A DNA stretch of 64,000 nt from Alphaproteobacteria bacterium (GTDB lineage: Bacteria > Pseudomonadota > Alphaproteobacteria > Rs-D84). The DNA lies in assembly GCA_017463185.1 (NCBI GenBank), contig JAFTPS010000003.1, positions 27,113-91,112 of the forward strand. Direction: 5' to 3'. Both the position numbers and the translations under genes were made by a program. A model generated the notes under the pieces. The model worked only from the letters and a program-made list of their open reading frames with translations. It ran no database searches and was not told the DNA's origin. Shown here piece by piece: positions 2 to 52,208 of this stretch (the first letter of the stretch is position 1; each line of letters begins with the position of its first letter).

Positions 2-802
2 AACATTTACAATAAATACGCGGGACGCGACACGCGATTCAAAATCATACGCCAGGAAAATTCTGGGCCCGCCAATGCGCGTAATCGCGGCTTAGGTATG
101 GCGCGTGGCGAATATGTACATTTTCACGATTGTGATGATTTTGTGGAACTGGATTATTATGAAAAAATGGTTGTGGCAATAAATCAAAGTGAGGCCGATA
201 TTATCTGTGGCGAGGTCAATGAACCAGGATATATGTTCCCAGATTTTAATCGTGTGCAAATCCTGGCGACATTAGAGGATAAAATCATAGTCCCCAAGGC
301 ACATTTGTTTCATGTTGTTTGGCGGTATGTGTATCGTCGTGAATTTTTAAGTGAACATAAATTACAATATCCCACCAATATGTTTATTGGCGAGGATACT
401 ATGTTTATGATGCGTACAACATACTATGCCAGGACAATTGCCACCGCCCCTGGTGCGGTTTATCACTGTGTCAGCGTGCCGACATCGCTGGGTAAAAATG
501 CCGGCAAAATTATGCGCGGACGCGCCAATGGTGATGCGCGTGAACACAGTGAATATGCCAAATTTATGGAACAAAGTGGTATGGCCCAGATTTTGAATCA
601 AATAAACCGCGGCAAAATTGTGGGGCGTACACGATATGAATTTCTGAAAATTCCATTTTTTATGAAAAAGTACTATTCCAATGGCGATATAAAATATTAT
701 GTACTGAATATTCCGCTGTTTATGCGGCGTCAGACGCACAATCGTATCCAGATTTTTATCTGTGGCATTTATGTGTTCCGAAAGTACACCCGCGGCGTAT
801 AA
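2..802 (+). CDS. glycosyltransferase family 2 protein (N-terminus cut by window edge)
   Basis: Frame open from nt 2; translation ...RFKIIRQENSGPANARNRGLGMARGEYVHFHDCDDF... shows GT2-type nucleotide-binding signature and DCDD (DxD-like); track ORF 98..802 is only the part after an internal ATG. Confidence 0.6.
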   Translation, partial: NIYNKYAGRDTRFKIIRQENSGPANARNRGLGMARGEYVHFHDCDDFVELDYYEKMVVAINQSEADIICGEVNEPGYMFPDFNRVQILATLEDKIIVPKAHLFHVVWRYVYRREFLSEHKLQYPTNMFIGEDTMFMMRTTYYARTIATAPGAVYHCVSVPTSLGKNAGKIMRGRANGDAREHSEYAKFMEQSGMAQILNQINRGKIVGRTRYEFLKIPFFMKKYYSNGDIKYYVLNIPLFMRRQTHNRIQIFICGIYVFRKYTRGV

Positions 803-4628: not shown

Positions 4629-4653
4629 AACTGGGCTTTCTTAGCCCAGTTTT
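4627..4653. terminator. bidirectional intrinsic terminator
   Basis: aaaactgggctttcttagcccagtttt between convergent genes. Confidence 0.6.
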
Positions 4654-6379
4654 ATCGTGTCGCGAATCCATTTTCGTCGCGCGGTGGAATTTTGAATAGT
4701 TGTCCCAGTTTGTGTTGTGTGGCATTATCGTCGGGCGCATAGACTAAATTTCCAGCCGTGGGAGAAAAAGTTAATTCACCAAATACTAATTTACCGTCTT
4801 TTGTTTCATAAAAATCAACACGAACAAAATCAAACGGTTCTGCCAGTTTTTCTGTAATTTCTATTAATTCGTTTAGAAAATCTGGACGTTCTATATCTGT
4901 TGAAATAATTCCCGCTATTCCATAATCAGACTGATTAAAGTCTAAATCAGACCAGTCGCGCGATTTTGTTTTTATCCGAATGTTATTGTGGCCATCCTGA
5001 TAACAGTTTAGGACTATAAATTCAACGCGCCCACCAAAACACCACATTTTATATTCAATATCTGTGCGAATGTCCACCATTTCACGGGCAATTACACGGG
5101 GTGGAATATATCTGTATTGCATTTCACAAAATAGTTCAGAATGATTATATAATAACCATTCTTTAACGGTTTGTTTTAGTTCCTGGGGAGAGAATTTTGT
5201 TTTATCAAAAACAAGTAAGTTTTGTCCGCTGCCCGCATTATAAGTAAGGACAAAAGATTGTGGTAATTTATCCAGTATAAACTCATCGCTGTTTTTATAG
5301 GTCGCATATAATTTTGGCAAATATTTATCACCAATTTTATCACAAACATATTTACGAACGGCCAGTTTGTCCGCACATTGTATTTTTAATGGTGTAACAT
5401 CAAACATACTGGCCCATATAACTTTGTCGCGAAATGTAGTTAGTTCCTCGGTCGGTAATTTGCCGGTGCGTTCATAAAAACGGTCGCGCAACAATATTGG
5501 CAACCGGTCCGCGCCGCAATAACGAACAATTTGTTGTCGGGACAGTGTATCAGAATAAACGATTGTTTGTTTCGTTGTCTGACGTCTTTTATAACTTAGT
5601 ATTTTTATACCGCAAAAGTATATATGGCGGCGACCATTTGGACAACGTTCTTTGTAAAATATTTTCATTGGAACCTTCCTGTGTTTGGTAATTTTATCTT
5701 GATTATGTGTTGCGATATATTGTAATTCAAAATCGCCGTTTGTTCTGTGTTCGCCCGGTGTTGGATACAGTGGGATTGTTTGCACCCCATATTTCCATGC
5801 GGCATAGTTATATGATAATTGGTCGCGCTTTGAATAGTTTTTTACCATATGCCACCATAAATTTAATGTTGATATGATTTCATTATGACGACGGAACATT
5901 ATATTTGTTTCACTCAGACCGTTGTTTTCAGGATATCCGTCGCGATGTAATTTTTTCATTTCGCGATTTACTATGTTTTTATGGTCTATGTGCAGGCGTT
6001 TTATTGTTTCTGCCTCGGCATAAATACAGTTGCGTTCAGGATGCATAGGAATTGCAATTTTAGTATTGTTTGCAATTAGTTTATTCGCTATATCAAATAT
6101 ATGATTGTTCAGGATTGATACATTTCCGTCCATCCATAAACTAATATCATATTCGGGAAACAGTATATGAGCATTGATTTTGTGCCAACGTGCGTTTTTA
6201 ACATTGCCATATTTATGACGCGCCAATTGGCGCACGACATATGGTCCAACATGTCCACACCGTATTAATTCGTGATTATCGGTGAACAGCACATAATCCC
6301 ACGATGGGTCAATGTATTTGTGTGTTGGCACGCTATCGTATCCGCCGGTAATACAAGTGTAGCATACTTTTTTGGTCAT
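4652..6379 (-). CDS. two-domain polysaccharide biosynthesis protein: N-terminal DUF616-type glycosyltransferase + C-terminal TupA-like ATP-grasp
   Basis: N-term CYTCITGGYD.. typical of DUF616/capsule GT family; C-term block (..KMWCFGGRVEFIVLNCYQDGHNNIRIKTKSRDWSDLDF..) resembles TupA-like ATP-grasp (teichuronopeptide-type amidoligase); 1-nt overlap with next gene. Confidence 0.5.
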   Translation of the reverse strand: MTKKVCYTCITGGYDSVPTHKYIDPSWDYVLFTDNHELIRCGHVGPYVVRQLARHKYGNVKNARWHKINAHILFPEYDISLWMDGNVSILNNHIFDIANKLIANNTKIAIPMHPERNCIYAEAETIKRLHIDHKNIVNREMKKLHRDGYPENNGLSETNIMFRRHNEIISTLNLWWHMVKNYSKRDQLSYNYAAWKYGVQTIPLYPTPGEHRTNGDFELQYIATHNQDKITKHRKVPMKIFYKERCPNGRRHIYFCGIKILSYKRRQTTKQTIVYSDTLSRQQIVRYCGADRLPILLRDRFYERTGKLPTEELTTFRDKVIWASMFDVTPLKIQCADKLAVRKYVCDKIGDKYLPKLYATYKNSDEFILDKLPQSFVLTYNAGSGQNLLVFDKTKFSPQELKQTVKEWLLYNHSELFCEMQYRYIPPRVIAREMVDIRTDIEYKMWCFGGRVEFIVLNCYQDGHNNIRIKTKSRDWSDLDFNQSDYGIAGIISTDIERPDFLNELIEITEKLAEPFDFVRVDFYETKDGKLVFGELTFSPTAGNLVYAPDDNATQHKLGQLFKIPPRDENGFATR

Positions 6380-7311
6380 TATATATTTTCTGCCTTTCGG
6401 AAAGATATTTTCAAAACAGGTATTTTATCAAAGATATAGGCTTTATAATTTTGAACAGAACGCAGGTTTTGATGATATATAGTACACAATGGAATTGATA
6501 AAAATGTAAAGCGAAAACATTTCTTATAATCAAAGCGTCGTGGGCTGTTATCCAGTGTAATATTATAACGATTGGCATTTGCAAAAACGGCATTTAGAAA
6601 ATCTGTATTTTGTGCATATGGAATTAGGTATTGGGTACCCTTTATGCGGCCTAAAGATGCTTTTTTAATGAAAGGAATTCCCTTTTTTAATGTTTCTAGT
6701 GGGTTGGCATAAATGATAAATCCAGCATCATTGCAACGGCTGTCTGAGTATGCGTATGATTTATAGCCGCGCTGTATTATAATACGCGATAGACGTATTT
6801 CGTATTTAAGAACAATGTTATCCTTGTCGTCTTGACGTTTTATATCGTTCATAAAATCATCAAAGAAATTTGATTGAAATATTTTTTGTGAGATTCCAAC
6901 AAACCAAGACTGAATATGTAATGGGATTATTTCGTCCGAATTACTGACCATACCAGTAAAATCCACGCCGCGGGATTCCAGGTCTTTTAATATTGGGCTT
7001 ATGTCATACAGTGGCCCCAGGACGGAATCATTTACCAAATACACCCAATCATAGTTTTCCAATATTTTGTTATCGCGGGCGTATTGATATGCGCGCTTGT
7101 ATGAACCAAAGTCATATTCCCCGTGGCGCGTCGCGGCGGCGTACAGCACATTTGGAATGCTTTTTATCTTGGCCAACTCGTTATCCGTTGTGTCGTTGTC
7201 CATTACAACAACTAAATCGCCCAGTCTTGATAATTCGCCCAGATAATATGTTAGCGTATCATCAACTGTGCCGTCGCGATCGTATGCAGCAAACAAAAAC
7301 AGACGTTTCAT
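6379..7311 (-). CDS. rhamnan-synthesis protein F (RgpF)-like glycosyltransferase
   Basis: N-term LFLFAAYDRDGTVDD...VVVMDNDTTD and overall pattern resemble RgpF family (PF05045-like); operonic with previous gene. Confidence 0.45.
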   Translation of the reverse strand: MKRLFLFAAYDRDGTVDDTLTYYLGELSRLGDLVVVMDNDTTDNELAKIKSIPNVLYAAATRHGEYDFGSYKRAYQYARDNKILENYDWVYLVNDSVLGPLYDISPILKDLESRGVDFTGMVSNSDEIIPLHIQSWFVGISQKIFQSNFFDDFMNDIKRQDDKDNIVLKYEIRLSRIIIQRGYKSYAYSDSRCNDAGFIIYANPLETLKKGIPFIKKASLGRIKGTQYLIPYAQNTDFLNAVFANANRYNITLDNSPRRFDYKKCFRFTFLSIPLCTIYHQNLRSVQNYKAYIFDKIPVLKISFRKAENI

Positions 7312-7460
7312 AATCCATTGCCCTTTTTGTACTAAATCGGGTGGGGTTCAAACAACTGGTGACGTTTTTACATCTGTGTGCGGTTGCACCGCCCCACCCG
7401 CGTGAAATTTAAAACCCCAGGGAATAAAATAAAACGCCACCTGATGTATATCCAAGGTGG

Positions 7461-7548
7461 CCGGGAAGTTAAGACTATCATACAAGCGAAATGACACCAC
7501 CGACCTTTGGAACGGAGTGTTCCTGTGGTATAATCGGTGGCTTCCCGG
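7461..7548. ncRNA. candidate structured RNA element, copy 1 of tandem pair
   Basis: gCCGGGAAGtt...gaaatgac-CCACCGA-...cggagtg..cctgtNgtat..-TCGGTGG-CTTCCCGGc; two nested helices; same architecture 234 nt downstream with compensatory substitutions. Confidence 0.35.
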
Positions 7549-7694
7549 CAAATAAAAAGCCGAGTTATAAAGAAATCGCTTGTAAGAGAGCCGTCTTACT
7601 GGCCCCGAACCCTATCCCTAAGGCTCGGCACAGATATTACAGGATAAATTTCATATTTTCAAGACATAAAAATAGTCGCCAATTAAAAAGGCGA

Positions 7695-7777
7695 CCGGGA
7701 AGTTAAGAAAATCACACGCTGAAATGACCCCACGGGCTTTCGGAGTGGGCCCTGTTGTATGGCCCGTGGCTTCCCGG
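7695..7777. ncRNA. candidate structured RNA element, copy 2 of tandem pair
   Basis: aCCGGGAAGtt...gaaatgac-CCACGGGC-...cggagtg..cctgtNgtat-GCCCGTGG-CTTCCCGGt; inner helix differs from copy 1 but stays complementary (covariation); closing pair g-c in copy 1 becomes a-t. Confidence 0.35.
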
Positions 7778-7971
7778 TGAATCCCGAGAACACTGACGCG
7801 CAAGGTGGTGCGCGTCACAACGTGTGGACTTTCTTACGGTCCAAACCCACATTTTACAATGCGGTTCAATCTGATGTTACACAATTGATTGGCTAATCGC
7901 AAGTCATAAATTGAACTTGCGGGATGTAATCTGTTCGGATACACTGAGTCCATAAAAGGAGATAAGAGCCC

Positions 7972-8427
7972 ATGCATAAGATTATGACTTTTTCCATGGT
8001 GTTGGGGTTATGTGCCTGTAACAGTGTTTATATGAAACCAAATTCGTTGGATGCTGGACACGTGGTTTATGCGGACCGTGGCGGGTATTCTATGCGCCGC
8101 AGTATCAAGGAAACAATGGAAAATCGTGGCTATCGCGTTGTTGTTGGGCGTGCCACTGTAAACGAGAATGCAACGGACGAGAGTATTAGCGTTGATATAG
8201 ATAAAAATATTATACCTGTTGATGTAAAATATGTAATCAAGGTCAATGAACGCAATGAGAAGTTCCGGCCGATTTGGTGTGTGTTTAATGGTTTCTGGTG
8301 GTGGAATTTTAATGTTTCAATCGCAAATCAGGAAACTGGTGACGAAATTGTGTCTTGGCGTGGACGCGGATGCGCGAACAGTTCTGTGCGTTTGTTGAAC
8401 AGGATACTGGATAAAGTCGAAAAATAA
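7972..8427 (+). CDS. lipoprotein (lipobox LGLCAC)
   Basis: Signal peptide + Cys lipobox; RBS aaaggaga; followed by intrinsic terminator. Confidence 0.55.
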   Translation: MHKIMTFSMVLGLCACNSVYMKPNSLDAGHVVYADRGGYSMRRSIKETMENRGYRVVVGRATVNENATDESISVDIDKNIIPVDVKYVIKVNERNEKFRPIWCVFNGFWWWNFNVSIANQETGDEIVSWRGRGCANSSVRLLNRILDKVEK

Positions 8428-8674: not shown

Positions 8675-9089
8675 TTTGCCTTTCCTTTGTATTATAAAAA
8701 ATTAAATGCCGGGTTTTCTGGTGCCAGGTCCCCGGCCGACCCCGCAATCGCTAAAGCGAATGTGGTCAACAATTGCCAACCATATTCAAAGCCATATTAG
8801 GCAGCCATTGCAAGGCGAACATTGTCGTTCGCAGCGATTCTATCGCCATTCAGTTTTTAGTTAGTGTTTTACGACAACCATGTCGGATTCAATCTTTTGC
8901 CTTTATTTCGCCTGTCGAATCTATGTCAGCCCCATTTGCAAATATGACATCAATCATATCAGTAAATGGTGGAGCTGTGGGGTACCGCCCCCCAGTCCAA
9001 AACGATTATTCCACAAAGACTTCAGAATCATCACCGTTTACACGGCCGTATTATTATAGGCTTTTGGACTGGAAATTGCAAGTTTTTAA

Positions 9090-39220: not shown

Positions 39221-39754
39221 TTATATTGTATGCTCGGATTTGGTCTTTGCCATTTGTACGGTTGGCGAAACATCCGATGGCGCGGCCATTTGTGCAACCT
39301 TAGACTGGGCCATTTCCCATTTGCGACGTGGCTCGCCAATAATTTTGTCATAAAATGCATCAACGATAAAATCAAATGCCGGGATGTCTGTTGGTAATTT
39401 TATCGGGGCGATATTGCGCGGGTCGCTGCCACGAATAGCTTTGTCAAACTGACCCTCGGTCAATTGCGCACCATATTCAAAAATCTCACATAATGGGCCG
39501 GCAACATCTGGTCCAACTTCCATACTTTCAAATCCCATTATATTATAGATACGGGCACCCGCCCCTTTTCCATTGTTATAGAAAACTATTTTAGATAATC
39601 CAGACTGTACACGGTAATATGCGCCCTCAGGTTCGTCTGCAACGCGCCGGTCATTTTTATCAATTCGCTCGCCAATTTTTACGATTGCGCGTTTTGATGT
39701 TTCCTGTTTGCGCAACAGCTTCTGTAATTCGTATATTTTATCTATATTTGCCAT
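39221..39754 (-). CDS. hypothetical protein
   Basis: 177-aa ORF with RBS aaagggaaa; no recognisable domain. Confidence 0.35.
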   Translation of the reverse strand: MANIDKIYELQKLLRKQETSKRAIVKIGERIDKNDRRVADEPEGAYYRVQSGLSKIVFYNNGKGAGARIYNIMGFESMEVGPDVAGPLCEIFEYGAQLTEGQFDKAIRGSDPRNIAPIKLPTDIPAFDFIVDAFYDKIIGEPRRKWEMAQSKVAQMAAPSDVSPTVQMAKTKSEHTI

Positions 39755-40069
39755 AGCATATTTCCCTTTTTATACATAATAAAACCGCCATACGGAATCT
39801 GGCGGTCGGGGAGTTGCTAAATCAGTGTATTAGTGATTCTGTCGCTTTCGGGTTGTCCCTGTTGTATAGCAAACAGCTCCCCGACTTATACAAGTCAGGG
39901 ATAAATCACGATACAAAACCATCGGAATGACATCAGATAACGATGCCATTAACAATTTTGCACCGAATACACTGGGCCTAGCACAGCCCCGAACCCATAT
40001 CCCTATGGATTCAATTCATAGTTTATCACTAAATTTCAGAAATGTAAATTGAATATATTGTTTGATGTT

Positions 40070-41155
40070 TTACTCAAACACGCTTTTGACATCTGTCATT
40101 ATATCACCGGCGCGTTTGTCGGATATGCCGACACGATGTGCGACCGCCAACATATCGGCACCTGTGATGTCTATGCCTTTGCCATTTACAGATGTTGTGT
40201 GTTCCCAAATTCCAGGTGTTCGGGTTAAGTCAAAGACAGGGGAAACATGCCAATCACCGTCATCATATAAAAATGCAAAATTTTTGGTGTGGTCATCGGT
40301 ATTGTTTATCCAAATGTTAAACACCATAAGGCGGAACATTTTTTCAACTTCAACCATATTACGGGTTAATTTCGCAGTCAAAGACAATAAATCAGAATAA
40401 TCAACCACAGGTTGTGTATGGTCTGCGTCCAACAGACCTGCTGCAGAAATCATAAAGACTTTATCGCCATTTGGTTTGCGGTCAAAACGCCGAACCCCAA
40501 AGTATTTTCCATTAAACAATCTATGTTCTGGTGTATCTAGGCCCGCTTTGATTGCAGATTCCATAATATTAAATTCTTGGGCACCAATATCTATTGGGTC
40601 TGTTCGGGCAGGAAATTTGATAATCCAATCCATACCATCAACTTTGCGGAATATTTTTGGACGTGTTCCACCGGACGAGCCACCAATACGAAACAATTCT
40701 TCGGTGATTTTATCTTCTGTGGTTATTGCATTGTCTTCAATGATTTTTCTGACCTGAATTGCAATGTCGTCCAGTTCGGAATCTTTGTATTCTGCAATCA
40801 TTTCAGCAGCAGGTTCAAATTCCAATGCCCCAGGCCCATTTTTACCAACGATTGCCAATCTGTCCAATACAGAAATGCTGTTCGGTGCAATTCCACGCCG
40901 CTGTAATTCACGATTTACCAATAATTGTCCCCAACTGTCTGGCAAAGAATCATTAAAAACACCAAACACACCGTCAAATGGATTGCGATTTGCAATAAAT
41001 ACGCGCTTTTCCAATGGTAATTTAAATGGTGATATACTAAAACCATTTTCCAGCCAACCTGCGTCATATTCAAATGCCATAAGGTTATCAGGGGTCAATG
41101 CCAAACGCCCAACCACCATGTCATGATATTTAACCGTCAGAATTTTATTTTGCAT
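40070..41155 (-). CDS. hipA: HipA-family serine/threonine kinase toxin
   Basis: HipA N-domain (..FDGVFGVFNDSLPDSWG..), catalytic NTDDHTKNFAF motif; start MQNKIL at 41155 overlaps hipB stop by 11 nt. Confidence 0.8.
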   Translation of the reverse strand: MQNKILTVKYHDMVVGRLALTPDNLMAFEYDAGWLENGFSISPFKLPLEKRVFIANRNPFDGVFGVFNDSLPDSWGQLLVNRELQRRGIAPNSISVLDRLAIVGKNGPGALEFEPAAEMIAEYKDSELDDIAIQVRKIIEDNAITTEDKITEELFRIGGSSGGTRPKIFRKVDGMDWIIKFPARTDPIDIGAQEFNIMESAIKAGLDTPEHRLFNGKYFGVRRFDRKPNGDKVFMISAAGLLDADHTQPVVDYSDLLSLTAKLTRNMVEVEKMFRLMVFNIWINNTDDHTKNFAFLYDDGDWHVSPVFDLTRTPGIWEHTTSVNGKGIDITGADMLAVAHRVGISDKRAGDIMTDVKSVFE

Positions 41156-41426
41156 GTTCGCCACCGTCCCGTACAACATCAAATATAGACTGATAATTTT
41201 TACGCACAAACAGGTTGTCAAAATCGCCTTCGTATCCCAGCGCCTGCGATAACTTAATCAGTGCAGTTAATGATATTTCCCCGGTTCGTTCAAATCGCTT
41301 GATTGAGCCCAAAGATACCCCAGAACGCTGGACCAATGTCATTTGCGACATCTTGGCGGTGCGTCGAACGGTACGGAACCTGTCTTTTATTCTGGTTTTG
41401 ATAGATAATATATTATCTATATTCAT
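41145..41426 (-). CDS. hipB: HTH XRE-family antitoxin HipB
   Basis: 93-aa Cro/C1-type HTH (..MSQMTLVQRSGVSLGSIKRFERTGE..) immediately upstream of and overlapping hipA. Confidence 0.65.
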   Translation of the reverse strand: MNIDNILSIKTRIKDRFRTVRRTAKMSQMTLVQRSGVSLGSIKRFERTGEISLTALIKLSQALGYEGDFDNLFVRKNYQSIFDVVRDGGEHAK

Positions 41427-45132: not shown

Positions 45133-45810
45133 ATGAATATTGATGACATTATAAACGCATTTTATAAACTGCATGATTATAAGGGAAAATTCAGATTTAA
45201 TACCCCAGAATATATCAGTTTCCATAGGAATCTCACGGATTTTATCTATGAAAACCACCTGGAAGATACTATGTATTGGAAGAAAATATCCGACAATTTA
45301 TTGTATACAGCAACGGAATATATGACACTGCGAGAAGCTGGCATTATATCAAAAAATCTAGAACTTTTACGACGCCATATTTTACAGACTCGAGACGAAC
45401 CTTTCTGGAAGTATATCCATCCTTTGTTATCGCCAATAACACAACCAAAATTCCAAGCACAACAATATGCCGATTGTGTAGAATCTGCATTCAAGGAAAT
45501 TAACTCTAGGTTAAAAGAGTTATATCTTAAATTGCGAAATACGGAACTAGACGGCAGCACCCTAATGAATCATGTATTTTCGCCTAATAACCCGGTGTTA
45601 ACTTTTGAGAACATAGAAACACAGACTGGCAAAGATGTCCAAATTGGATATATGAACATATTTGCTGGCGCAATGACAGGCATAAGAAACCCCAAGGCAC
45701 ACGGAAATCAGATTATATCGAAGGACATGGCTATAAAGCGATTGATTTTTGCTAGTTTATTAATGGACAAAATAGATGAAGCCATATCGTATTCCAACAT
45801 AGAAGAATGA
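45133..45810 (+). CDS. hypothetical protein, possibly TIGR02391/Hypoth_Ymh family (abortive-infection-like)
   Basis: C-terminal ..FAGAMTGIRNPKAHGNQ.. resembles conserved RNxxAHG block of Ymh family; assignment from memory, low certainty. Confidence 0.35.
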   Translation: MNIDDIINAFYKLHDYKGKFRFNTPEYISFHRNLTDFIYENHLEDTMYWKKISDNLLYTATEYMTLREAGIISKNLELLRRHILQTRDEPFWKYIHPLLSPITQPKFQAQQYADCVESAFKEINSRLKELYLKLRNTELDGSTLMNHVFSPNNPVLTFENIETQTGKDVQIGYMNIFAGAMTGIRNPKAHGNQIISKDMAIKRLIFASLLMDKIDEAISYSNIEE

Positions 45811-45908: not shown

Positions 45909-46967
45909 ATGCCAAATAACCGCGATATTATGATTACACCAGAAATACTGAACGGTATTGCCGAGATTGATGCGTTTAATGGTGCGTGGACCGGTGGGGC
46001 GGTAAAACTGTCCGCGGATGAACTGCGTGTTATGCGCAGGGTCGCAACGATTGAATCTGTTGGCTCATCCAATCGCATAGAAGGCAACCGTATGACAGAT
46101 GCAGAGATTGAAGTGCTATTCGCTAATATCAATCGTCAGTCATTTGCCACACGTGATGAGCAGGAAGTTGCAGGCTATTCAGATGTAATCAATACCATAT
46201 TTGAAAACTATGCGTCTATACCGCTTAGCGAGAATTATATTAAGCAGTTGCATAAAATATTATTGAATTACTCTGACAAGGACACCCGCCATCGTGGGGA
46301 ATATAAAAAAGACAGTAATCGTGTTGCCGCTTTTGATGCAAACGGTAATGAAATCGGTTCTATATTCGAAACCGCTATACCATTTGATACTCCACGTCTG
46401 ATGAGCGAAACAGTAAAATGGGTCAATGACGCATTGGCAGACAAGTTCTTTCACCCTATTATTGCTATTGGGGTATTTGTGATACACTTTCTGTCCATCC
46501 ACCCATTTACCGATGGAAACGGGCGTCTGTCACGCGCATTGACTGTTATGCTGATGCTGAAAAGTGGATACACATATATGCCATATGCATCTATGGAATC
46601 TATTATAGAAGCAACCAAGGACGCATACTATCGTGCATTACGCGGCACACAAAAAAACATCTGGGGCGACAAAATCAATTATGAACCTTGGCTGACTTTC
46701 TTTGTTCGTGCCTTGGTTGCACAAAAGCGCCAATTGGAAGATAAAATTGCGAAGGCACGTGGCACAAGTGCCGCAAAATTATCATCTACTCAGAATGAGA
46801 TTCTGAAACTGTTTTATAAAGCACCAGAATTGACCATGTCACAGATTATATCTGCGATGGATAAAAATCCAGAAACCATTCGCAAGGCGGTACAGGCACT
46901 GGTAAAACGAGGACACATATCAAAGCAAGGCACGACCCGTGGCGTGTTTTACACTTTGCATAAATAA
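45909..46967 (+). CDS. fic: Fic/Doc family protein
   Basis: Canonical Fic motif HPFTDGNGRLSRAL; C-terminal winged-helix-like region. Confidence 0.8.
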   Translation: MPNNRDIMITPEILNGIAEIDAFNGAWTGGAVKLSADELRVMRRVATIESVGSSNRIEGNRMTDAEIEVLFANINRQSFATRDEQEVAGYSDVINTIFENYASIPLSENYIKQLHKILLNYSDKDTRHRGEYKKDSNRVAAFDANGNEIGSIFETAIPFDTPRLMSETVKWVNDALADKFFHPIIAIGVFVIHFLSIHPFTDGNGRLSRALTVMLMLKSGYTYMPYASMESIIEATKDAYYRALRGTQKNIWGDKINYEPWLTFFVRALVAQKRQLEDKIAKARGTSAAKLSSTQNEILKLFYKAPELTMSQIISAMDKNPETIRKAVQALVKRGHISKQGTTRGVFYTLHK

Positions 46968-47055: not shown

Positions 47056-47883
47056 ACCATAGCTCGCATTTCAAATCGTCTTTGATATAATTATGGCGTC
47101 AACGATTCGCCACAATCGCGCGTTATAGGTTGCTTCTCAAATCGTCTTTGATATAATTACAGTTGTTGAATATATGCCCGGCAAGACGTTATAGGTTGCT
47201 TCTCAAATCGTCTTTGATATAATACATGTGTTTATACATGGTTGCCTCTGCGCGTTATAGGTTGCTTCTCAAATCGTCTTTGATATAATGCAGATAATTA
47301 AAAATAGCAGTTGCAATCAGTTATAGGTTGCTTCTCAAATCGTCTTTGATATAATAAACGTTGACAATGATTTAGGAGTTGGTGCGTTATAGGTTGCTTC
47401 TCAAATCGTCTTTGATATAATTGTCTTGCGACCCAATGCATACGCACCAGCGTTATAGGTTGCTTCTCAAATCGTCTTTGATATAATACAACTTGAATTG
47501 CCGTTACACAGTACATAGTTATAGGTTGCTTCTCAAATCGTCTTTGATATAATAAACGTTGAAAATGATTTAGGAGTTGGGGCGTTATAGGTTGCTTCTC
47601 AAATCGTCTTTGATATAATGCCCGGTTCTTGTCAACCCTAACGCATTCGGTTATAGGTTGCTTCTCAAATCGTCTTTGATATAATGACCATATATCTTTG
47701 ATGCCGAATTGGAAAGTTATAGGTTGCTTCTCAAATCGTCTTTGATATAATAAGGGGCGTGAAGACTATGGAAGATTTGTTGTTATAGGTTGCTTCTCAA
47801 ATCGTCTTTGATATAATCGTGATGTATGTAAATCGCAACGCGGGTGCGTTATAGGTTGCTTCTCAAATCGTCTTTGATATAAT
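47056..47883 (+). CRISPR. CRISPR array, 13 repeats (first degenerate) of 36 nt GTTATAGGTTGCTTCTCAAATCGTCTTTGATATAAT, 30-nt spacers
   Basis: Perfect 66-nt periodicity from 47122; repeats at 47122, 47188, 47254, 47320, 47386, 47452, 47518, 47584, 47650, 47716, 47782, 47848; degenerate repeat 47056-47091 keeps 3' 21 nt; each repeat ends in extended -10 box TGATATAAT. Confidence 0.95.
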
Positions 47884-48318: not shown

Positions 48319-49233
48319 TTAGTTATCCGTATTTACAATTTTAGGCGCAGATGTAATACAAGGTAATTTTAAGGCTTGTAAATCCTTGGCCTTGAAAGAT
48401 GACGCAATTGATTCTGAATACAACGGTATCGCATTCATAATAGAATGCCGCATACCATTAAACGTGCAACTGTGCAACAAGACAGATACTAATTGTCGCT
48501 TGATATCCGGCGTCAATTTGTCTGCGTCGCCAAAATCCATATTAAACACAATATAATCCAGAAAAGGACGCCACGGTTCAATCAAATCATCAGCCAGACA
48601 AAAATTATCCAGCTTATTGCAATGATGTATACCATAAAACGGCAACATACCCGCGCCAACAATACTGCGCGCGACACATCCACGCAAAATCGCATAACCA
48701 TAATCCAGCGCATGATTGCGAATATCATTGTCATTACTGCGATTGAAATTTTCCCATAATGCCGACCAATAAATACGCGCAGCAACCCCTTCTAGGTTTT
48801 GAGCGTCGCCTGATTTAACATTATCTGCCAAAATATCTAGCTTTTTATACACAGCATTGTCGCACAGTCGTAATACCGCAGATTGATTGCGAATTTTTTG
48901 CACAACGATATTTTGCCACATACGTTTGCGCAGTGGCTGCGACGTTTCTATCTGAGCCCAGGCAGTTTCTGTGTAGCGTGAATTTTTATGAAACGGAAAG
49001 AACGCGCCATTCGGCATATGCGATGCATCACAGGAAAATACAACAGCGCCGTTTTCCGCCAACGACGACAATAATGTGGACGTTATCTGAATTTGCGGTG
49101 ACTCTAAAATGACGACAGAAATATCTTCTAGTGGGACGTTTTGTGTTTCACCACTGTCTGCCGTCCAGTTTAATTGTTTATTCCTGACACAAATCCGCGA
49201 CGGTTTGGACAGGGTAAGAATGCGCCAAGACAT
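48319..49233 (-). CDS. cas1: CRISPR-associated endonuclease Cas1 (type II)
   Basis: 304 aa, Cas1 conserved residues, between cas9 and cas2. Confidence 0.85.
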   Translation of the reverse strand: MSWRILTLSKPSRICVRNKQLNWTADSGETQNVPLEDISVVILESPQIQITSTLLSSLAENGAVVFSCDASHMPNGAFFPFHKNSRYTETAWAQIETSQPLRKRMWQNIVVQKIRNQSAVLRLCDNAVYKKLDILADNVKSGDAQNLEGVAARIYWSALWENFNRSNDNDIRNHALDYGYAILRGCVARSIVGAGMLPFYGIHHCNKLDNFCLADDLIEPWRPFLDYIVFNMDFGDADKLTPDIKRQLVSVLLHSCTFNGMRHSIMNAIPLYSESIASSFKAKDLQALKLPCITSAPKIVNTDN

Positions 49234-49286: not shown

Positions 49287-52208
49287 TTATTTTTTATTTA
49301 CAACTGGCATACGCTTTTCCGGCAATTTTACATCGCGTATCGCCCCCAACACAGTGACAAAGCACTTTTTTATTTCGGTGCACATTCCGACTGATTTTTT
49401 AACAACTTGGATATTTTTATTATCTTGGCGATATAATATAAAATTTGTTCCATGGTCCATTTGGGTTATGTATCCTTCATACTCTTCGTCTGTACGGGTT
49501 TTGATTTTTATATAATCATCTTTGTGCAGGGTGCAGACGAATTCTGCATCGGGGACAATGAATTTTGTATCATCCCCAGACACAGTATCTGATACAAATA
49601 TCGGCACACAGGTGTATTTGCCTGTGTTCGTCCGCCAAATATCAAAACGAAACATATCGCCACGAACAGCGTTGCCAAAACGTATTTTTATACTGCCCTT
49701 GGCCCCCATTGTATTTTTCCCTTTCTTGGTGCGATACGATCTGGGATTTATATAAATCGTTTCGTTATGCGCAGATCCTGTGGCGTTGCAACGTGGTGGA
49801 CGCGAAACTGTAATCATATCCAACGCAGCCAGCACATCATTACGGAAAGTAGGCCATGGCGACTGTATGGCAGTTTTTAATTTTTTATACCATGCTTCGC
49901 CATTTTCGCCTATTAACCTGCCCTTGTTCTCAAACTTGCCAGACAAGGTTGACAGATAACGAACCATTTCTTGGGTAGCGCAAGCAATTACTATGGCATC
50001 TTGGGCATGATGTTTATCAGACTCTTCGCGGTTCTTGCTTAGCCCCCATTGATGACGAAGATAGTCCGTCAACGCCCCCGTACGAACCAGCACACGCATT
50101 TTGCCGTCATTTGTTGTTGACCATTTTATGCCTTGGGTCAAGTACTGGGCTGCAAAACGTGCAATCGTTGCATTGTCGTTCGCATTGCGGGCAATAAAGT
50201 CATTTTGTTCATCGCTGCTTTGTGGCAAATCTGTGTTTGTCAGTTTTCTGAACTTGGCCATATTATGATAACCGCGTGCACGCAGAGTCATTTCATAAAA
50301 CTGATTAGCATCCAAATATTCAGACGGGGTTTTGCTGCCTTTGGCCTGATTACAGGCGCGACAGACCAATACTTTGTTAGATTGCGAATTGTCCAATGAA
50401 CGTGAGTACGGCAAGATATGATCAATTTCATACGCATCCCAATTATTCGCATCAATAGATGCGCCACAATATGGACATTGACAATGCTGCTCCATATACA
50501 GTTTGTATTTTTTGGCATTTTTACCATGTTCTTGAAGCGCCGCTTCGTTCGCGGCACGATTTCGTTCATTTTCTTTTTGTAATAGTGCCAATTCTTTGGG
50601 GGACTTTTTTAATTCACGCCCTATCTCCAAATGAATTCTGTCAGGTGTGCCATAGCGATACACCATCGCATTATAAACACGACGTAATTGTGACAATGTA
50701 CGACGTGCCACAGGCGATGTTAAGCGTTTGCCCAGAACCGACCAATCTATCTGGCGCAACATGCCGTCTGCAACATCATCAGACATATCAATAAAACTAT
50801 CGCCTGTGCTGCGATGGTCCCAATCATTTATTTTGCACGCATCGGCATACGTTTTGCCCGCACGCATTTCTGGGATAAGTTTGTTTAATGCAGACAACGA
50901 TAAATTCAAAAATTCAGACGTACTTAGTTGTGAAATCGCATCTGCGTGTTCAGGCAAGAATTCAGACACTCCTTTTTTTATGCGTCCTGGCGTTTTCTCG
51001 GTCGCCAAAACTTCATATATTTTATCCATCAAAGCGATGTTATTGGTATACGGCAACAAGGTATGATAGCCACTAAACTTGCTAAACACGACTTTTTCAA
51101 CATCTGCAATTTTTGGTTCAACCCAAATTTTTTGTTCTTTGTCGTATTTACGTGAATAATTCAGTGCCTTGAACCGATACTCGTCATCAAATTGTAATAA
51201 TTTACGGACATCCGAATATTTTAAACCTGTTTTCTTTTTGTATAATTCTGCCAAAACTAATTCTATTTGGTCAGGCGTCAAACCGTTTTGATTGCACGTT
51301 GATAACGCCACAAACAACTGGGCAGATGGCGCCCCCTTGGGCGCAACAGGTTCACCGGTAAATTTGCACGCCCCACGCATAGATGCAACAGAACGATATA
51401 ATGGCGAATCTGATTCATTGAACTTGCGCTGACGCGAGGCAATCGGATACCACGCATCAAATACCGCAGTAAAATCATTGCCAAACGTTTTTTGTGCCGC
51501 CAATATCATTCGTGCTTCACGGAAAATTTCAGAACGAGGAATGGAATTTGTATAGGTGGATTCTTCACTTGTTTTTGCCTCGCCCTTTGCGCTGATTTTT
51601 GTGATGGTCTTTTTTTGGTTGCGCATTTGAGCCGGATTTTTTGCATACAAAACCTGACATAATGTTTTGTTGTCGCCCGATTGGCGCAACAAAGCCAGAT
51701 TATCCGCAATACAACCAATCGCCTTTAACTCTTCTTTGGCATCTGGGCTGTCTGTATCCGCTGTTTTAGCCACATCAACAGGATATGTAATATCGTCATA
51801 CCCACGATGCTTGGCCAAATGGTATAAAACACGACCTGTTTCACGTGGTGTTAATTTCCGCTGAAACGCATCAACCGCACGCAAACGCCAGATGTTTATA
51901 TCTGTGTCACGGTTTAGATAAAAATTATTGTGACCGTTTTTCTTGGGCTCTGGAATGTCTATTAAATTTGCAGATCGCAACAATGCACGAATTTGACGCA
52001 TACGCAACGCACGATGACGTAGGCGACGCCGCATACCACGGGCAACACGTCTGTCAGCGGCATTTGTCGCAGCAGTAAAGCAGCGTACGCCACACCCCAA
52101 GATTTTACTGCCCACAAAACCTTGATTTTCGTCTACTGTGTCTGACATTTCTATTGTAGCCCACCCAATACTGGCGACCCCTAAATCAAAACCGAATATT
52201 CTAGCCAT
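49287..52208 (-). CDS. cas9: Cas9, compact type II-C (973 aa)
   Basis: RuvC-I MARIFGFDLGVASIGWATIE; HNH ..YEIDHILPYSRSLDNSQSNKVLVCRACNQAKGS..; arginine-rich bridge helix after RuvC-I. Confidence 0.95.
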   Translation of the reverse strand: MARIFGFDLGVASIGWATIEMSDTVDENQGFVGSKILGCGVRCFTAATNAADRRVARGMRRRLRHRALRMRQIRALLRSANLIDIPEPKKNGHNNFYLNRDTDINIWRLRAVDAFQRKLTPRETGRVLYHLAKHRGYDDITYPVDVAKTADTDSPDAKEELKAIGCIADNLALLRQSGDNKTLCQVLYAKNPAQMRNQKKTITKISAKGEAKTSEESTYTNSIPRSEIFREARMILAAQKTFGNDFTAVFDAWYPIASRQRKFNESDSPLYRSVASMRGACKFTGEPVAPKGAPSAQLFVALSTCNQNGLTPDQIELVLAELYKKKTGLKYSDVRKLLQFDDEYRFKALNYSRKYDKEQKIWVEPKIADVEKVVFSKFSGYHTLLPYTNNIALMDKIYEVLATEKTPGRIKKGVSEFLPEHADAISQLSTSEFLNLSLSALNKLIPEMRAGKTYADACKINDWDHRSTGDSFIDMSDDVADGMLRQIDWSVLGKRLTSPVARRTLSQLRRVYNAMVYRYGTPDRIHLEIGRELKKSPKELALLQKENERNRAANEAALQEHGKNAKKYKLYMEQHCQCPYCGASIDANNWDAYEIDHILPYSRSLDNSQSNKVLVCRACNQAKGSKTPSEYLDANQFYEMTLRARGYHNMAKFRKLTNTDLPQSSDEQNDFIARNANDNATIARFAAQYLTQGIKWSTTNDGKMRVLVRTGALTDYLRHQWGLSKNREESDKHHAQDAIVIACATQEMVRYLSTLSGKFENKGRLIGENGEAWYKKLKTAIQSPWPTFRNDVLAALDMITVSRPPRCNATGSAHNETIYINPRSYRTKKGKNTMGAKGSIKIRFGNAVRGDMFRFDIWRTNTGKYTCVPIFVSDTVSGDDTKFIVPDAEFVCTLHKDDYIKIKTRTDEEYEGYITQMDHGTNFILYRQDNKNIQVVKKSVGMCTEIKKCFVTVLGAIRDVKLPEKRMPVVNKK

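What the first reader, a model, noticed from the sequence alone, without database searches (positions are those of the whole stretch)
7461..7777. Tandem pair of ~85-nt structured RNA elements with compensatory base changes in a divergent intergenic region
Two elements 234 nt apart share an identical outer helix CCGGGAAG...CTTCCCGG, whose closing pair covaries (g-c vs a-t). They also share conserved unpaired blocks (ttaaga, gaaatgac, cggagtg, cctgtNgtat). The inner helix differs in sequence but stays complementary: CCACCGA/TCGGTGG versus CCACGGGC/GCCCGTGG. Retention of pairing despite sequence change argues for selection on RNA structure rather than chance repetition. The intervening DNA contains further long helices (gccgag...ctcggc at 7556-7629; gggtggggt...gccccacccg at 7347-7401). 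The unit does not match any riboswitch consensus I can recall; I checked glycine, c-di-GMP, ZTP and SAM-II, and also compared with RNase P, SRP RNA and tmRNA. It sits upstream of a lipoprotein gene and downstream of (divergent from) the glycan locus.
Basis: seen in the sequence. Interest (0 to 1): 0.7.

Follow-up and report, generated by a model that had tools for sequence, protein, structure and literature searches.

The report
Self-pairing leader RNAs before surface genes
The two repeats are real folded RNAs, but on the opposite strand: each is the tail of a ~210-250-base leader RNA, found over 100 times in tiny-genome gut bacteria ahead of surface-protein and sugar-coat genes, and each tail pairs with its own head through a copy-specific sequence, as phage immunity RNAs do.

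Summary
Two 74%-identical ~88-nt elements sit at 7461-7548 and 7695-7777 and fold into a three-way junction (3WJ) with compensatory changes.

They are read on the minus strand, not the plus strand. Each is followed there by an intrinsic terminator and points toward the glycan genes.

A third copy lies at 39803-39887. About 126 copies were found in relatives (uncultured gut Alphaproteobacteria, Candidatus Enterousia / order Rs-D84). Across 104 of them, 96% of cells pair and 21 of 27 pairs show compensatory change.

Each 3WJ is the 3' domain of a larger unit:
- a promoter;
- hairpin H1, with a GNRA loop;
- hairpin H2;
- variable hairpins, often with an internal terminator;
- the 3WJ;
- terminator T2;
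- usually an RBS and ORF 36-60 nt downstream.

The H2 loop pairs with the 3WJ junction strand, and the linker after H2 pairs with the P3 loop. These sequences differ in every copy (cognate -17.6 vs non-cognate -8.1 kcal/mol).

Downstream genes are mostly secreted or surface proteins and glycosyltransferases.

The closest known family is sRNA-Xcc1 (below Rfam threshold). Five canonical sRNA-Xcc1 loci show the same head-tail complementarity. Three of them also have target sites at the downstream gene's ribosome-binding site, as in phage P1 C4 RNA.

The regulatory output is inferred, not shown.

The parts
7874..7902 (-). Unit 2 promoter-like site, TTGCGA-17-TAACAT, about 6 nt upstream of H1
   Evidence: Read, coordinates checked. 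The same position holds TTGnnn-16..18-TAnnnT in 46 of 65 family units.
7843..7867 (-). Unit 2 hairpin H1 with GNRA loop (GUAA)
   Evidence: H1 has a GNRA tetraloop in 41 of 55 distinct family units.
7826..7842 (-). Unit 2 hairpin H2. Its loop GUAAGAAA (7830-7837) holds site a1, complementary to the J3/1 strand UUUCUUA (7704-7710).
7818..7825 (-). Unit 2 site b1, ACACGUUG, complementary to the P3 loop CAGCGUGU (7714-7721) with one G-U pair
7783..7817 (-). Unit 2 middle hairpin (UGACGCGC...GCGCGUCA) followed by UUCUCGGG, which is complementary to the 5' strand of P1 (a possible anti-P1)
   Evidence: The pairing with P1 is inferred; it could not be tested by covariation.
7692..7780 (-).
   Evidence: R1 93.6 bits. 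Rfam sRNA-Xcc1 30.5 bits, E 0.0035, full length. Covariation.
7666..7695 (-). Unit 2 terminator T2, GUCGCC-9 nt-GGCGAC then UAUUUUUAU. It overlaps the last 2 nt of P1.
   Evidence: T2-type hairpin plus U-tract found in 97 of 102 family units.
7634..7662 (-). Unit 1 promoter-like site, TTGAAA-17-TAATAT
7587..7629 (-). Unit 1 5' domain: GCCGAG (outer strand), H1 (GAGCCUUA GGGA UAGGGUUC) and H2 (GGGGCC AGUAAGAC GGCUCU). Site a1, UAAGAC (7593-7598), is complementary to J3/1 GUCUUA (7470-7475).
7551..7583 (-). Unit 1 site b1, ACAAGCGA (7576-7583), complementary to the P3 loop UCGCUUGU (7482-7489). It is followed by CUCGGC (7559-7564) and the U-run UUUUUAUU. CUCGGC can pair with GCCGAG (a terminator-like helix) or with the 5' strand of P1.
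7458..7551 (-).
   Evidence: R1 93.5 bits; covariation. No Rfam match at E<=10.
7423..7461 (-). Unit 1 terminator T2, GCCACC-14 nt-GGUGGC then GUUUUAUUUUAUU
7338..7400 (-). Extra long hairpin, CGGGUGGGG...CCAGUUGUUUGAACCCCACCCG, between T2 and the first glycan gene. It is specific to leaders of glycan loci.
   Evidence: A comparable hairpin in 12 of 13 family units with a start codon 145-171 nt after the junction (not L090); basal stem covaries, (G/A)UUGUUU(G/C)A(A/U)C kept. No Rfam match.
6379..7311 (-). First downstream gene, an RgpF-like glycosyltransferase, followed by a TupA-ATPgrasp/TOD1 protein (4652-6379)
   Evidence: Pfam PF05045 at 4.4e-24; PF14305 and PF04765
39966..40048 (-). Unit 3 promoter (TTTACA-17-TAAACT, 40020-40048), H1 (39991-40012, GGGA loop), H2 (39974-39990, a1 UGCUA 39979-39983) and b1 AGUGUAUU (39966-39973)
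39888..39965 (-). Unit 3 middle region (nested hairpins, then UUAUUUAU) and CCCUGAC (39894-39900), which is complementary to the 5' strand of P1
39803..39887 (-). Unit 3 three-way junction. b' AAUACACU is at 39824-39831 and a' UAGCA at 39815-39819.
   Evidence: R1 49.5 bits, E 1e-10. Rfam sRNA-Xcc1 38.8 bits, E 1.6e-5, full length.
39777..39807 (-). Unit 3 terminator T2, GACCGCCA...UGGCGGUU then UUAUUA. The RBS and ATG at 39754 follow 48 nt after the 3WJ.
39221..39754 (-). ORF downstream of unit 3, 177 aa, no Pfam family. A HipA-like kinase gene lies upstream at 40070-41221.

Best explanation
Each element is the 3' three-way-junction (3WJ) domain of a self-contained leader RNA unit transcribed on the minus strand. 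The unit runs: promoter, H1 (GNRA hairpin), H2 hairpin, linker, variable hairpins (in about half of units an internal terminator T1), a short strand complementary to P1, the 3WJ, then terminator T2.

Two parts of the 3WJ pair with the unit's own 5' end. The junction strand J3/1 (a') pairs with the H2 loop (a1). The P3 loop (b') pairs with the linker after H2 (b1). These sequences are different in every copy, so each unit recognises only itself.

Units sit directly ahead of genes for secreted or surface proteins and ahead of glycan loci, so RNA polymerase must pass T2 (and T1) to express those genes.

I therefore read the unit as a cis-encoded antisense/attenuator module of the sRNA-Xcc1 kind. 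It would work like the leader-embedded immunity RNAs of phages P1/P7 (C4) and P4 (CI). On this reading, head-tail pairing selects between alternative leader folds and so sets how much transcription terminates in the leader. Terminated transcripts would release an RNA able to act on nascent leaders of the same unit only.

In this window two units stand in tandem ahead of the glycan operon, where orthologous loci have one. A third unit stands ahead of an unrelated ORF.

Shown: the structure, the family, the strand, the unit-specific pairing, and the position relative to genes. Inferred: that pairing controls termination, the direction of control, and any action in trans.
For: Strand and unit boundaries:
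- A terminator directly follows each 3WJ; 97 of 102 family units have one.
- A promoter-like site sits at a fixed position before H1 in 46 of 65 units.
- The covariance model hits one strand only.

Structure: 96.2% of cells pair, and 21 of 27 pairs show compensatory change, far above the slid controls.

Family: 104 + 22 strong hits, plus one weak hit (25.7 bits), among loci from gut Alphaproteobacteria, with several per genome.

Unit-specific long-range pairing:
- Cognate mean -17.6 against non-cognate -8.1 kcal/mol (sd 2.9). The cognate partner is the best in 37 of 62 units and within the top 5 in 60 of 62.
- Both sub-interactions are specific: a, -4.55 against -0.84; b, -5.49 against -1.26. 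Cross-controls are null.
- Whole-unit minimum-free-energy folds use this pairing.

Gene coupling:
- The ORF start lies within 75 nt of the 3WJ in 69 of 96 units, typically 36-60 nt.
- Downstream products include GT2 x10, RgpF x4 and OMP beta-barrel x4, but most have no Pfam family. A crude heuristic finds 43 of 69 signal-peptide-like.

Kinship with sRNA-Xcc1:
- Full-length sub-threshold Rfam matches with the same junction and the AUACAA...GAA loop.
- Five canonical sRNA-Xcc1 loci (E. coli x2, Pseudomonas, Neisseria, Aeromonas) have the same order: promoter, hairpin (a1), b1, T1, 3WJ. The cognate upstream partner is the best in 5 of 5.
- In three of them, second copies of the sites lie downstream, with b2 abutting the Shine-Dalgarno of an antirepressor-type gene.
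- The literature places sRNA-Xcc1 upstream of symE and ORF6N genes and reports it as an 88-nt RNA.
Against: - There are no expression data for this organism.
- No cognate target sites exist downstream of the Enterousia-type units, so the simple C4-style block of the ribosome-binding site does not apply here.
- No covarying antiterminator partner was found for T2. Only 2-3 nt overlap between P1 and T2.
- About 30% of copies are not closely followed by an ORF. Unit 2 is followed by another unit, which would also fit free-standing RNA genes.
- The long-range pairs are almost all Watson-Crick (G-U in 75 of 1031). A strand-asymmetry test did not favour the sense strand (-16.15 against -16.65). The pairing alone therefore does not prove selection at the RNA level.
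- It is unresolved whether the head-tail pairing coexists with H2, P3 and P1 as kissing contacts or replaces them as a second conformer.
- Pairings of the conserved GGGG/CCCC strands could not be tested by covariation.
Confidence: 0.55

Rival explanations
1. The elements are free-standing, trans-acting small RNA genes, as the name sRNA-Xcc1 implies. Each unit would make a stable RNA ending at T2 that regulates distant mRNAs. The neighbouring ORFs would be incidental.
For: Each unit has its own promoter and a strong terminator. Tandem units without an ORF occur here (unit 2 followed by unit 1), in Neisseria and in Xylella. sRNA-Xcc1 accumulates as a discrete 88-nt RNA in Xanthomonas and is abundant in EHEC.
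Against: The variable single-stranded segments match the unit's own 5' end rather than a common target. No other exact bipartite site exists in the 64-kb window. In 69 of 96 units an RBS and ORF follow within 75 nt with no room for another promoter. The seed-like sequences differ in nearly every copy (50 distinct P3 loops in 55 units).
Confidence: 0.2
2. The three-way junction is a riboswitch-like sensor that binds a small molecule, second messenger, ion or protein and controls T2. The head-tail pairing would be only tertiary scaffolding.
For: The arrangement is a three-way junction with a strongly conserved asymmetric internal loop (UAUACAACAGG / GAAAG) and junction, followed by a terminator, an RBS and an ORF. 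Multi-copy leaders ahead of surface genes recall c-di-GMP riboswitches (my own knowledge).
Against: The downstream gene set is heterogeneous and points to no ligand. Relatives sit in phage immunity regions, where their loops match ribosome-binding sites. The junction strand J3/1 is hypervariable and paired to H2 rather than conserved as a pocket. No terminator/antiterminator pair covaries.
Confidence: 0.15
3. The unit is a processive-antitermination RNA, like HK022 put or Bacillus EAR. The folded leader would modify RNA polymerase so that it reads through T1, T2 and downstream terminators of long surface-glycan operons.
For: The unit lies at the 5' end of glycan and surface operons, contains terminators, and has a compact, conserved multi-domain fold.
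Against: Most downstream genes are short single ORFs. There is no similarity to put or EAR in Rfam. Unit-specific pairing codes are not needed for this function.
Confidence: 0.07
4. The signal is at the DNA level: inverted repeats of a mobile element (MITE) or of an invertible switch, not an RNA.
For: There are many dispersed copies. The long-range complementarity is almost entirely Watson-Crick and is equally good on both strands.
Against: G-U pairs are frequent inside the junction (for example, columns 21/58 U-G in 67, and 68/97 G-U in 47), and the model scores on one strand only. The repeats differ in every copy, so no shared recombinase site exists. The promoter lies outside the repeat-flanked segment. 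No terminal repeats or target-site duplications are present. Copies diverge by compensatory change. Canonical relatives carry direct-repeat copies of the sites at ribosome-binding sites.
Confidence: 0.03

Closest known systems
sRNA-Xcc1 (Rfam RF02221). First described in Xanthomonas campestris; found in integron cassettes, prophages and plasmids of beta- and gamma-proteobacteria.
   Same: - The same three-way junction: a 9-bp P1, a P2 with a 5' AUACAA / 3' GAA internal loop and a small apical hairpin, a P3 hairpin, and a 6-7-nt J3/1 strand.
- The same unit order upstream: promoter, then a hairpin whose loop matches J3/1, a linker that matches the P3 loop, an internal terminator, and the junction. 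This was seen here in 5 canonical loci.
- It lies just upstream of a gene on the same strand.
- It occurs in tandem arrays (Xylella; Neisseria).
   Different: - Scores are 30.5 and 38.8 bits, and one copy gives no match, against a gathering score of 53. None of 18 related loci passes. My model does not find the canonical loci.
- This family adds an H1 GNRA hairpin at the 5' end and a terminator T2 directly after P1.
- It lacks the second set of target sites at the downstream ribosome-binding site.
- Its context is chromosomal surface and glycan genes of reduced-genome Alphaproteobacteria, not antirepressor or symE genes of mobile elements. No confirmed viral copies were found.
C4 antisense RNA of phages P1/P7 (Rfam RF01695) and CI RNA of P4
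   Same: A small structured RNA is embedded in the leader of the operon it controls. Two short segments are complementary to two sites on the same transcript, and specificity changes through matched changes on both sides (heteroimmunity). This mechanism is from my own knowledge of Citron & Schuster 1990 and the P4 literature, and is summarised in PMC12197685. In an E. coli prophage, an sRNA-Xcc1 and a C4-like hit occupy equivalent positions ahead of Rha and ORF6N genes.
   Different: No sequence or structure match to the C4 model at E<=10. Only the upstream pair of sites exists in the family studied here. The output is likely an intrinsic terminator rather than occlusion of a ribosome-binding site. 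RNase P processing is untested.
Riboswitch or attenuator leaders present in many copies ahead of surface genes (for example, c-di-GMP-I in Clostridia)
   Same: A structured domain, then an intrinsic terminator, an RBS and an ORF. Many copies per genome sit ahead of adhesins, surface proteins and polysaccharide genes (the comparison is from my own knowledge).
   Different: No evidence for a ligand. The junction strand is variable and base-paired to the unit's own 5' hairpin. No Rfam riboswitch match.

Membership tests
sRNA-Xcc1 (Rfam RF02221) | Score at or above the family's gathering threshold (53 bits) with the Rfam covariance model | tested here: not met
   Element 2 scores 30.5 bits, the third copy 38.8 bits, and element 1 gives no match at E<=10. 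There are no hits at gathering level in the window or in 18 related loci. A genuine E. coli copy scores 79.6 bits.
sRNA-Xcc1 (Rfam RF02221) | Three-way junction with the AUACAA/GAA internal loop in P2, a P3 hairpin and a short J3/1 strand | tested here: met
   Full-length alignments to model positions 1-87. Independent RNAalifold and covariation support.
sRNA-Xcc1 (Rfam RF02221) | Upstream hairpin loop and linker complementary to J3/1 and to the P3 loop. This feature was found here in canonical loci; it is not a published criterion. | tested here: met
   Enterousia-type units. Canonical loci L131, L132, L136, L137, L138.
sRNA-Xcc1 (Rfam RF02221) | Second copies of the target sites downstream, at the ribosome-binding site of the next gene. 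Seen here in 3 canonical loci. | tested here: not met
   Cognate -6.7 against non-cognate -6.3, and -7.25 against -7.24 kcal/mol; ranks are uniform.
sRNA-Xcc1 (Rfam RF02221) | Accumulates as a discrete RNA of about 88 nt | not testable with these tools
   Shown for Xanthomonas only (PMC2996969).
C4 antisense RNA / P4 CI RNA (RF01695) | Similarity to the C4 covariance model | tested here: not met
   No C4 match at E<=10 over either region.
C4 antisense RNA / P4 CI RNA (RF01695) | Two segments of the small RNA complementary to paired sites on its own transcript, with matched changes between variants | tested here: met
   Met for the upstream pair of sites. The downstream pair is absent.
C4 antisense RNA / P4 CI RNA (RF01695) | Processed from the leader (RNase P) and acts in trans to block translation or cause termination | not testable with these tools
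   Requires transcript mapping and genetics.
Riboswitch / transcription attenuator | Structured domain immediately followed by an intrinsic terminator and the regulated ORF | tested here: met
   T2 in 97 of 102 units. ORF start within 75 nt in 69 of 96 units.
Riboswitch / transcription attenuator | Mutually exclusive terminator and antiterminator pairing | tested here: inconclusive
   P1 and T2 share only 2-3 nt. No unit-specific partner was found for the T2 strands. Whole-unit folds show an alternative conformer with an anti-P1 hairpin and a full T2, but its conserved strands cannot be tested by covariation.
Riboswitch / transcription attenuator | A coherent downstream gene set pointing to a ligand | tested here: not met
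   Glycosyltransferases, OMP-like proteins, many orphan secreted proteins, and a few nuclease, helicase and ankyrin proteins.
MITE / dispersed DNA repeat | Near-identical copies with terminal inverted repeats and target-site duplications | tested here: not met
   Copies are 70-75% identical with compensatory changes. There are three in 64 kb. Each is embedded in a promoter-to-terminator unit.

The most novel reading that the evidence does not exclude
Each unit could be an RNA-only, address-coded feedback switch. Transcripts that end at T2 would release the junction RNA. That RNA would then pair in trans with the nascent 5' hairpin of its own unit only and bias termination in the leader, as P4 CI RNA does. 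Every surface-protein or glycan gene in these reduced genomes of under 1 Mb would then get its own independent, possibly bistable (phase-variation-like), on/off control without dedicated protein regulators. The same logic would reinterpret the widespread sRNA-Xcc1 family as C4-like, leader-embedded antisense regulators of antirepressor and toxin genes.
Probability: 0.15. Interest if true: 0.9.

Novelty: new variant of a known kind. Interest (0 to 1): 0.72.

Why it matters
If the model holds, three things follow.

First, a group of uncultured gut bacteria with genomes of 0.75-1.0 Mb (order Rs-D84, PMC12306168) would control much of its cell surface through one reusable RNA module rather than through protein regulators. 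The controlled genes include secreted proteins, outer-membrane proteins and glycan loci. From the density of extra copies in the fetched loci, I roughly estimate about ten copies per genome.

Second, the copy-specific head-tail pairing would be a natural set of orthogonal RNA-RNA 'addresses' on a constant scaffold. That is directly useful for synthetic regulators.

Third, sRNA-Xcc1 has been called a trans-acting virulence sRNA of unknown mechanism since 2011. The same complementarity in its canonical loci gives it a concrete, testable mechanism: pairing with sites in its own leader and, in three loci examined, at the ribosome-binding site of the next gene (ORF6N, AntA/AntB or BRO antirepressor-type genes).

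Tried and rejected
- **Rfam.** Scans at gathering and at E<=10 thresholds gave only sub-threshold sRNA-Xcc1 matches. All other hits (suhB, Chlorobi-1, Histone3, snoRNAs) are chance-level.
- **Plus-strand reading.** Single-sequence folding energy does not separate the strands (z -2.8 to -3.7 on both). Terminators, the covariance model and gene order do.
- **Anti-Shine-Dalgarno idea.** The CACUCCG loop in P2 is not conserved outside the two window paralogues.
- **Second target sites.** I looked for sites at the ribosome-binding site or anywhere in the 60 nt downstream. None are present in this family.
- **Antiterminator for T2.** I tested the middle region and H1 for a unit-specific partner of the T2 strands or loop. 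None was found.
- **Conserved GGGG/CCCC strands.** I tested covariation between UUCGGGG, CCCUGAC and the P1 strands. They are too conserved, and the signal is mixed.
- **Fixed-register alignment.** A composite alignment meant to count the a:a' and b:b' pairs column by column failed, because the b-site register shifts by 0-3 nt (0.60 against 0.50). I relied on cognate versus non-cognate duplex energies instead.
- **Strand-asymmetry (G-U) test** on the long-range pairs was uninformative.
- **Viral contigs.** Three pattern matches all failed the model and are chance matches. Seven genome loci from unrelated phyla also failed the model.
- **Trans targets.** No other exact bipartite site exists in the window.
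- **Lipoprotein-anchored loci** L007/8 and L011-13 carry no copy within 2.5 kb, so the RNA is linked to the glycan side, not to the lipoprotein gene.
Full report

Yes.
- They are 74% identical over 97 nt (blastn E 5e-10).
- The shared 14-mer occurs exactly twice in 64 kb, against 0.28 expected.
- The differences in the inner helix are compensatory.

**2. Which strand?**

Single-sequence folding is equally good on both strands (z -2.8 to -3.7). Four other features point to minus.
- On the minus strand each element is followed directly by a GC hairpin and a U-run: GCCACC-14 nt-GGUGGC GUUUUAUUUUAUU at 7461->7423, and GUCGCC-9 nt-GGCGAC UAUUUUUAU at 7695->7666. The simple terminator scanner missed both because their loops exceed 8 nt.
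- A covariance model built from five sequences scores 93.5 bits on minus and 15.8 on plus.
- Many G-U pairs inside the junction would be A-C mismatches on the other strand.
- Promoter-like sites lie upstream on the minus strand.

The RNAs therefore point toward the RgpF-like glycosyltransferase gene (6379-7311, minus). They point away from the lipoprotein-like gene (7972-8427, plus).

**3. Relatives**

The neighbouring 151-aa protein has 653 homologues in uncultured gut Alphaproteobacteria. Orthologous loci L004/5, L006 and L009/10 carry one copy of the element at the same place between the glycan genes and that protein. The pair in this window is therefore a local tandem duplication of the whole unit.

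The model found a third copy in the window at 39803-39887 (minus, 49.5 bits, E 1e-10). It sits between a HipA-like gene and a 177-aa ORF.

- Nearly all come from gut, rumen or termite Alphaproteobacteria, many named Candidatus Enterousia.
- The model confirmed 104 + 22 copies, plus one weak hit.
- It rejected seven loci from unrelated phyla and three viral contigs as chance matches.
- On the 104-sequence alignment, 96.2% of cells pair and 21 of 27 pairs change on both sides. The covariation score is 0.352 against 0.05-0.10 for slid controls, and 0 of 500 shuffles reach it. The alignment is fitted to the model, so the slid controls are the fairer comparison.

Enterousia belongs to order Rs-D84, with genomes of 0.75-1.0 Mb (PMC12306168).

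**4. The element is only the tail of a larger unit**

Printing 170 nt upstream and 55 nt downstream of every copy shows a conserved architecture.
- A promoter, TTGnnn-16..18-TAnnnT, at a fixed position in 46 of 65 units.
- Hairpin H1, with a GNRA tetraloop in 41 of 55 distinct units (GGGA in 39) and 36 different stem tops.
- UUCGGGG, then hairpin H2.
- A linker.
- Variable hairpins, including an internal terminator-like hairpin plus U-tract in 45 of 98 units.
- A short strand, CCCUGAC or similar, complementary to the 5' strand of P1.
- The three-way junction.
- Terminator T2, in 97 of 102 units.
- In 69 of 96 units, an RBS and start codon within 75 nt, typically 36-60 nt.

The three window units are mapped to coordinates in the parts list.

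The helix gggtgggg...ccccaccc is really at 7338-7400. It belongs to an extra element found only ahead of glycan genes.

**5. Copy-specific head-tail pairing**

In the full-unit alignment, the H2 loop is complementary to the junction strand J3/1, and the linker after H2 is complementary to the P3 loop. The sequences differ from copy to copy.

| Unit | H2 loop (a1) : J3/1 (a') | Linker (b1) : P3 loop (b') |
|---|---|---|
| Unit 1 | UAAGAC : GUCUUA | ACAAGCGA : UCGCUUGU |
| Unit 2 | UAAGAAA : UUUCUUA | ACACGUUG : CAGCGUGU |
| Unit 3 | UGCUA : UAGCA | AGUGUAUU : AAUACACU |
| L004 | CUAGACAA : UUGUCUAG | not recorded |
| L095 | UCGUAA : UUACGA | ACGUCAUU : AAUGACGU |

The pairing is quantitatively specific.
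- For 62 non-identical units, the cognate 5' and 3' segments give -17.6 kcal/mol on average. Non-cognate pairs give -8.1 (sd 2.9).
- The cognate partner is the best of 62 in 37 units and among the top five in 60.
- Tested separately, both contacts are specific (a, -4.55 against -0.84; b, -5.49 against -1.26), and the crossed controls are null.

Whole-unit minimum-free-energy folds use this long-range duplex together with an anti-P1 hairpin and a full-length T2. Covariation separately supports H2, P3 and the inner pairs of P1. Either the contacts are kissing interactions within one compact fold, or the leader has two selected conformers. I could not decide between these.

The pairs are 93% Watson-Crick, and a sense/antisense energy comparison is uninformative. 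The case for RNA-level selection therefore rests on the junction, the terminators and the relatives described in section 7.

**6. What lies downstream**

Of 84 downstream products scanned:
- 10 are family-2 glycosyltransferases, 4 are RgpF, and 1 is a family-1 glycosyltransferase.
- 4 are OMP beta-barrel or opacity-type proteins.
- Single examples are LicD, polysaccharide pyruvyl transferase, surface antigen, ankyrin, PLD, Mrr, UvrD and similar.
- Most have no Pfam family.

Among the 69 closely coupled ORFs, a crude heuristic finds 43 signal-peptide-like and 25 with more than 4% cysteine. The module therefore precedes envelope, surface and other accessory genes, not a metabolic pathway.

**7. 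Closest known family and how it works**

Rfam's sRNA-Xcc1 model aligns full-length to element 2 (30.5 bits) and to the third copy (38.8 bits, E 1.6e-5). The alignments share the same junction and the same AUACAA...GAA internal loop. Both scores are below the gathering score of 53, and element 1 does not match. None of 18 related loci passes.

The literature calls sRNA-Xcc1 a trans-acting sRNA of unknown mechanism. It places it upstream of symE in Xanthomonas integron cassettes, upstream of an ORF6N gene in APSE phage, in a five-copy tandem array in Xylella, and as an 88-nt RNA in Xanthomonas.

I fetched five canonical loci.
- **E. coli prophage L131.** A genuine sRNA-Xcc1 (79.6 bits) lies about 40 nt upstream of an ORF6N gene.
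  - Its leader starts with the hairpin GGUG-CUCAAAA-CACC, whose loop complements J3/1 UUUUGAG.
  - CAAGUAG follows, complementing the P3 loop CUACUUG, and then a terminator with eight U.
  - After the junction, both sites recur: a hairpin CCCU-CUCAAAA-GGGG, and CAAGUAGGA overlapping the Shine-Dalgarno.
- **E. coli L132 (AntA/AntB gene) and P. aeruginosa L136 (BRO gene).** The same layout occurs with entirely different site sequences: CUUCAAAG: CUUUGAAG and CAAGCAG: CUGCUUG. In both, the downstream copy abuts the Shine-Dalgarno.
- **Neisseria L137 and Aeromonas L138.** Both show the upstream sites. In Neisseria the junction is followed by a second unit.
- **Energies.** The upstream cognate duplex is the best in 5 of 5 loci (-23.6 to -29.8 against -17.7). 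The downstream signal is clear in L132 and L136, visible by eye in L131, and ambiguous in L138.

This is the logic known for phage P1/P7 C4 RNA: loops a' and b' against sites a1/b1 and a2/b2, the latter covering a ribosome-binding site. It also resembles P4 CI RNA. The site details are from my own knowledge; the general mechanism is summarised in PMC12197685.

The Enterousia-type family keeps the upstream sites, adds H1 and T2, and has no downstream sites. Its output is therefore more likely termination in the leader than occlusion of the ribosome-binding site.

**8. Mechanism: what is shown and what is inferred**

Shown:
- the fold,
- the strand,
- the unit boundaries by sequence signals,
- the copy-specific pairing,
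- the tight coupling to downstream ORFs,
- the kinship of architecture with sRNA-Xcc1 units.

Inferred:
- that the pairing decides between leader conformers and so sets read-through of T2 (which shares 2-3 nt with P1) and T1;
- that terminated transcripts yield an RNA acting on nascent leaders of the same unit;
- the sign of regulation.

Against a simple switch, no covarying antiterminator for T2 was found, and the conserved GGGG/CCCC strands cannot be tested.

Rival readings are a free sRNA, a ligand or protein sensor, a processive antitermination RNA, and a DNA-level repeat. They are weighed in the rival explanations. The first two are not fully exclusive of the favoured model.

**9. Verdict**

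- It is a new, large branch of sRNA-Xcc1-like leader RNAs with a distinct layout and host range. Its copy-specific head-tail pairing has, to my knowledge, not been described for either branch.
- I rate it a new variant of a known kind, with interest 0.72.
- The main weakness is that there are no expression or functional data.

Noticed in passing
window 7338-7400 (minus); also L004, L006, L009, L014, L039, L049, L063, L064, L086, L091, L109: A second conserved RNA-like element lies between terminator T2 and the first glycosyltransferase gene, and only in glycan-locus leaders. It is a long hairpin whose basal stem covaries (GGGUGGGG/CCCCACCC, GGGCGGG/CCCGCCC, GGGUGGAUG/CAUCCACCC), with a nearly invariant GUUGUUU(G/C)A(A/U)C on the 3' side. 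It has no Rfam match. It might be an operon-polarity or antitermination signal.
   Followed up: partly
window 47071-47883 (array); 48319-49233 and 49287-52208 (minus): A CRISPR array of about 12 repeats (36-nt repeat GTTATAGGTTGCTTCTCAAATCGTCTTTGATATAAT, period 66) lies next to Cas1 and a compact 973-aa Cas9-like protein (HNH and RuvC domains). This is a small type II system in a genome that is probably under 1 Mb.
   Followed up: partly
window 8707-9085 (minus): A two-piece (permuted) alphaproteobacterial tmRNA gene (161.8 bits) lies 0.9 kb from the elements, between a 74-aa ORF and obg.
   Followed up: no
L131 2360-2625 (E. coli E2855 prophage); L132 1075-1345; L136 740-1040; L137; L138: Canonical sRNA-Xcc1 units carry matched target sites both in a 5' hairpin/linker and, in three loci, at the ribosome-binding site of the downstream antirepressor-type gene (ORF6N, AntA/AntB, BRO). 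In L131 a C4-like hit lies upstream of the neighbouring Rha gene. This suggests sRNA-Xcc1 is a C4-like cis-encoded antisense regulator.
   Followed up: partly
Family units, middle region (for example window 39901-39965; L101, L092): The region between site b1 and the junction carries a twice-repeated motif (hairpin followed by CGUUAUCC / CGUUAU..CCCUGAC). In one subfamily it has a clear terminator/antiterminator arrangement (AUCCGC...GCGGAU against GGCGC-GGAU-GCGUC plus U8). It was not analysed statistically.
   Followed up: no
L024, L027 (labelled Bacteroides fragilis), L035, L046 (Muribaculaceae), L085 (Endomicrobiia), L127 (Gastranaerophilales), L105 ('bacterium'): Good copies of the RNA (44-86 bits) sit on contigs assigned to unrelated phyla. 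L024 shares its downstream gene type with the alphaproteobacterial loci L014, L049, L063 and L064, so these are probably mis-binned contigs rather than horizontal transfer.
   Followed up: no
Family units, RBS region after T2 (listing): The ribosome-binding sites of the downstream ORFs are unusually often GGGG(A/G). That sequence is complementary to the CCCC of the P1 3' strand and of the anti-P1 strand, so translational masking is possible. This was not compared with other genes of these genomes.
   Followed up: no
window 40070-41221 (minus): A HipA-like toxin kinase gene lies immediately upstream of unit 3. Fic/DOC (45909-46967) and Hypoth_Ymh (45133-45810) genes are nearby, so this stretch looks like an accessory or defence island.
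   Followed up: no
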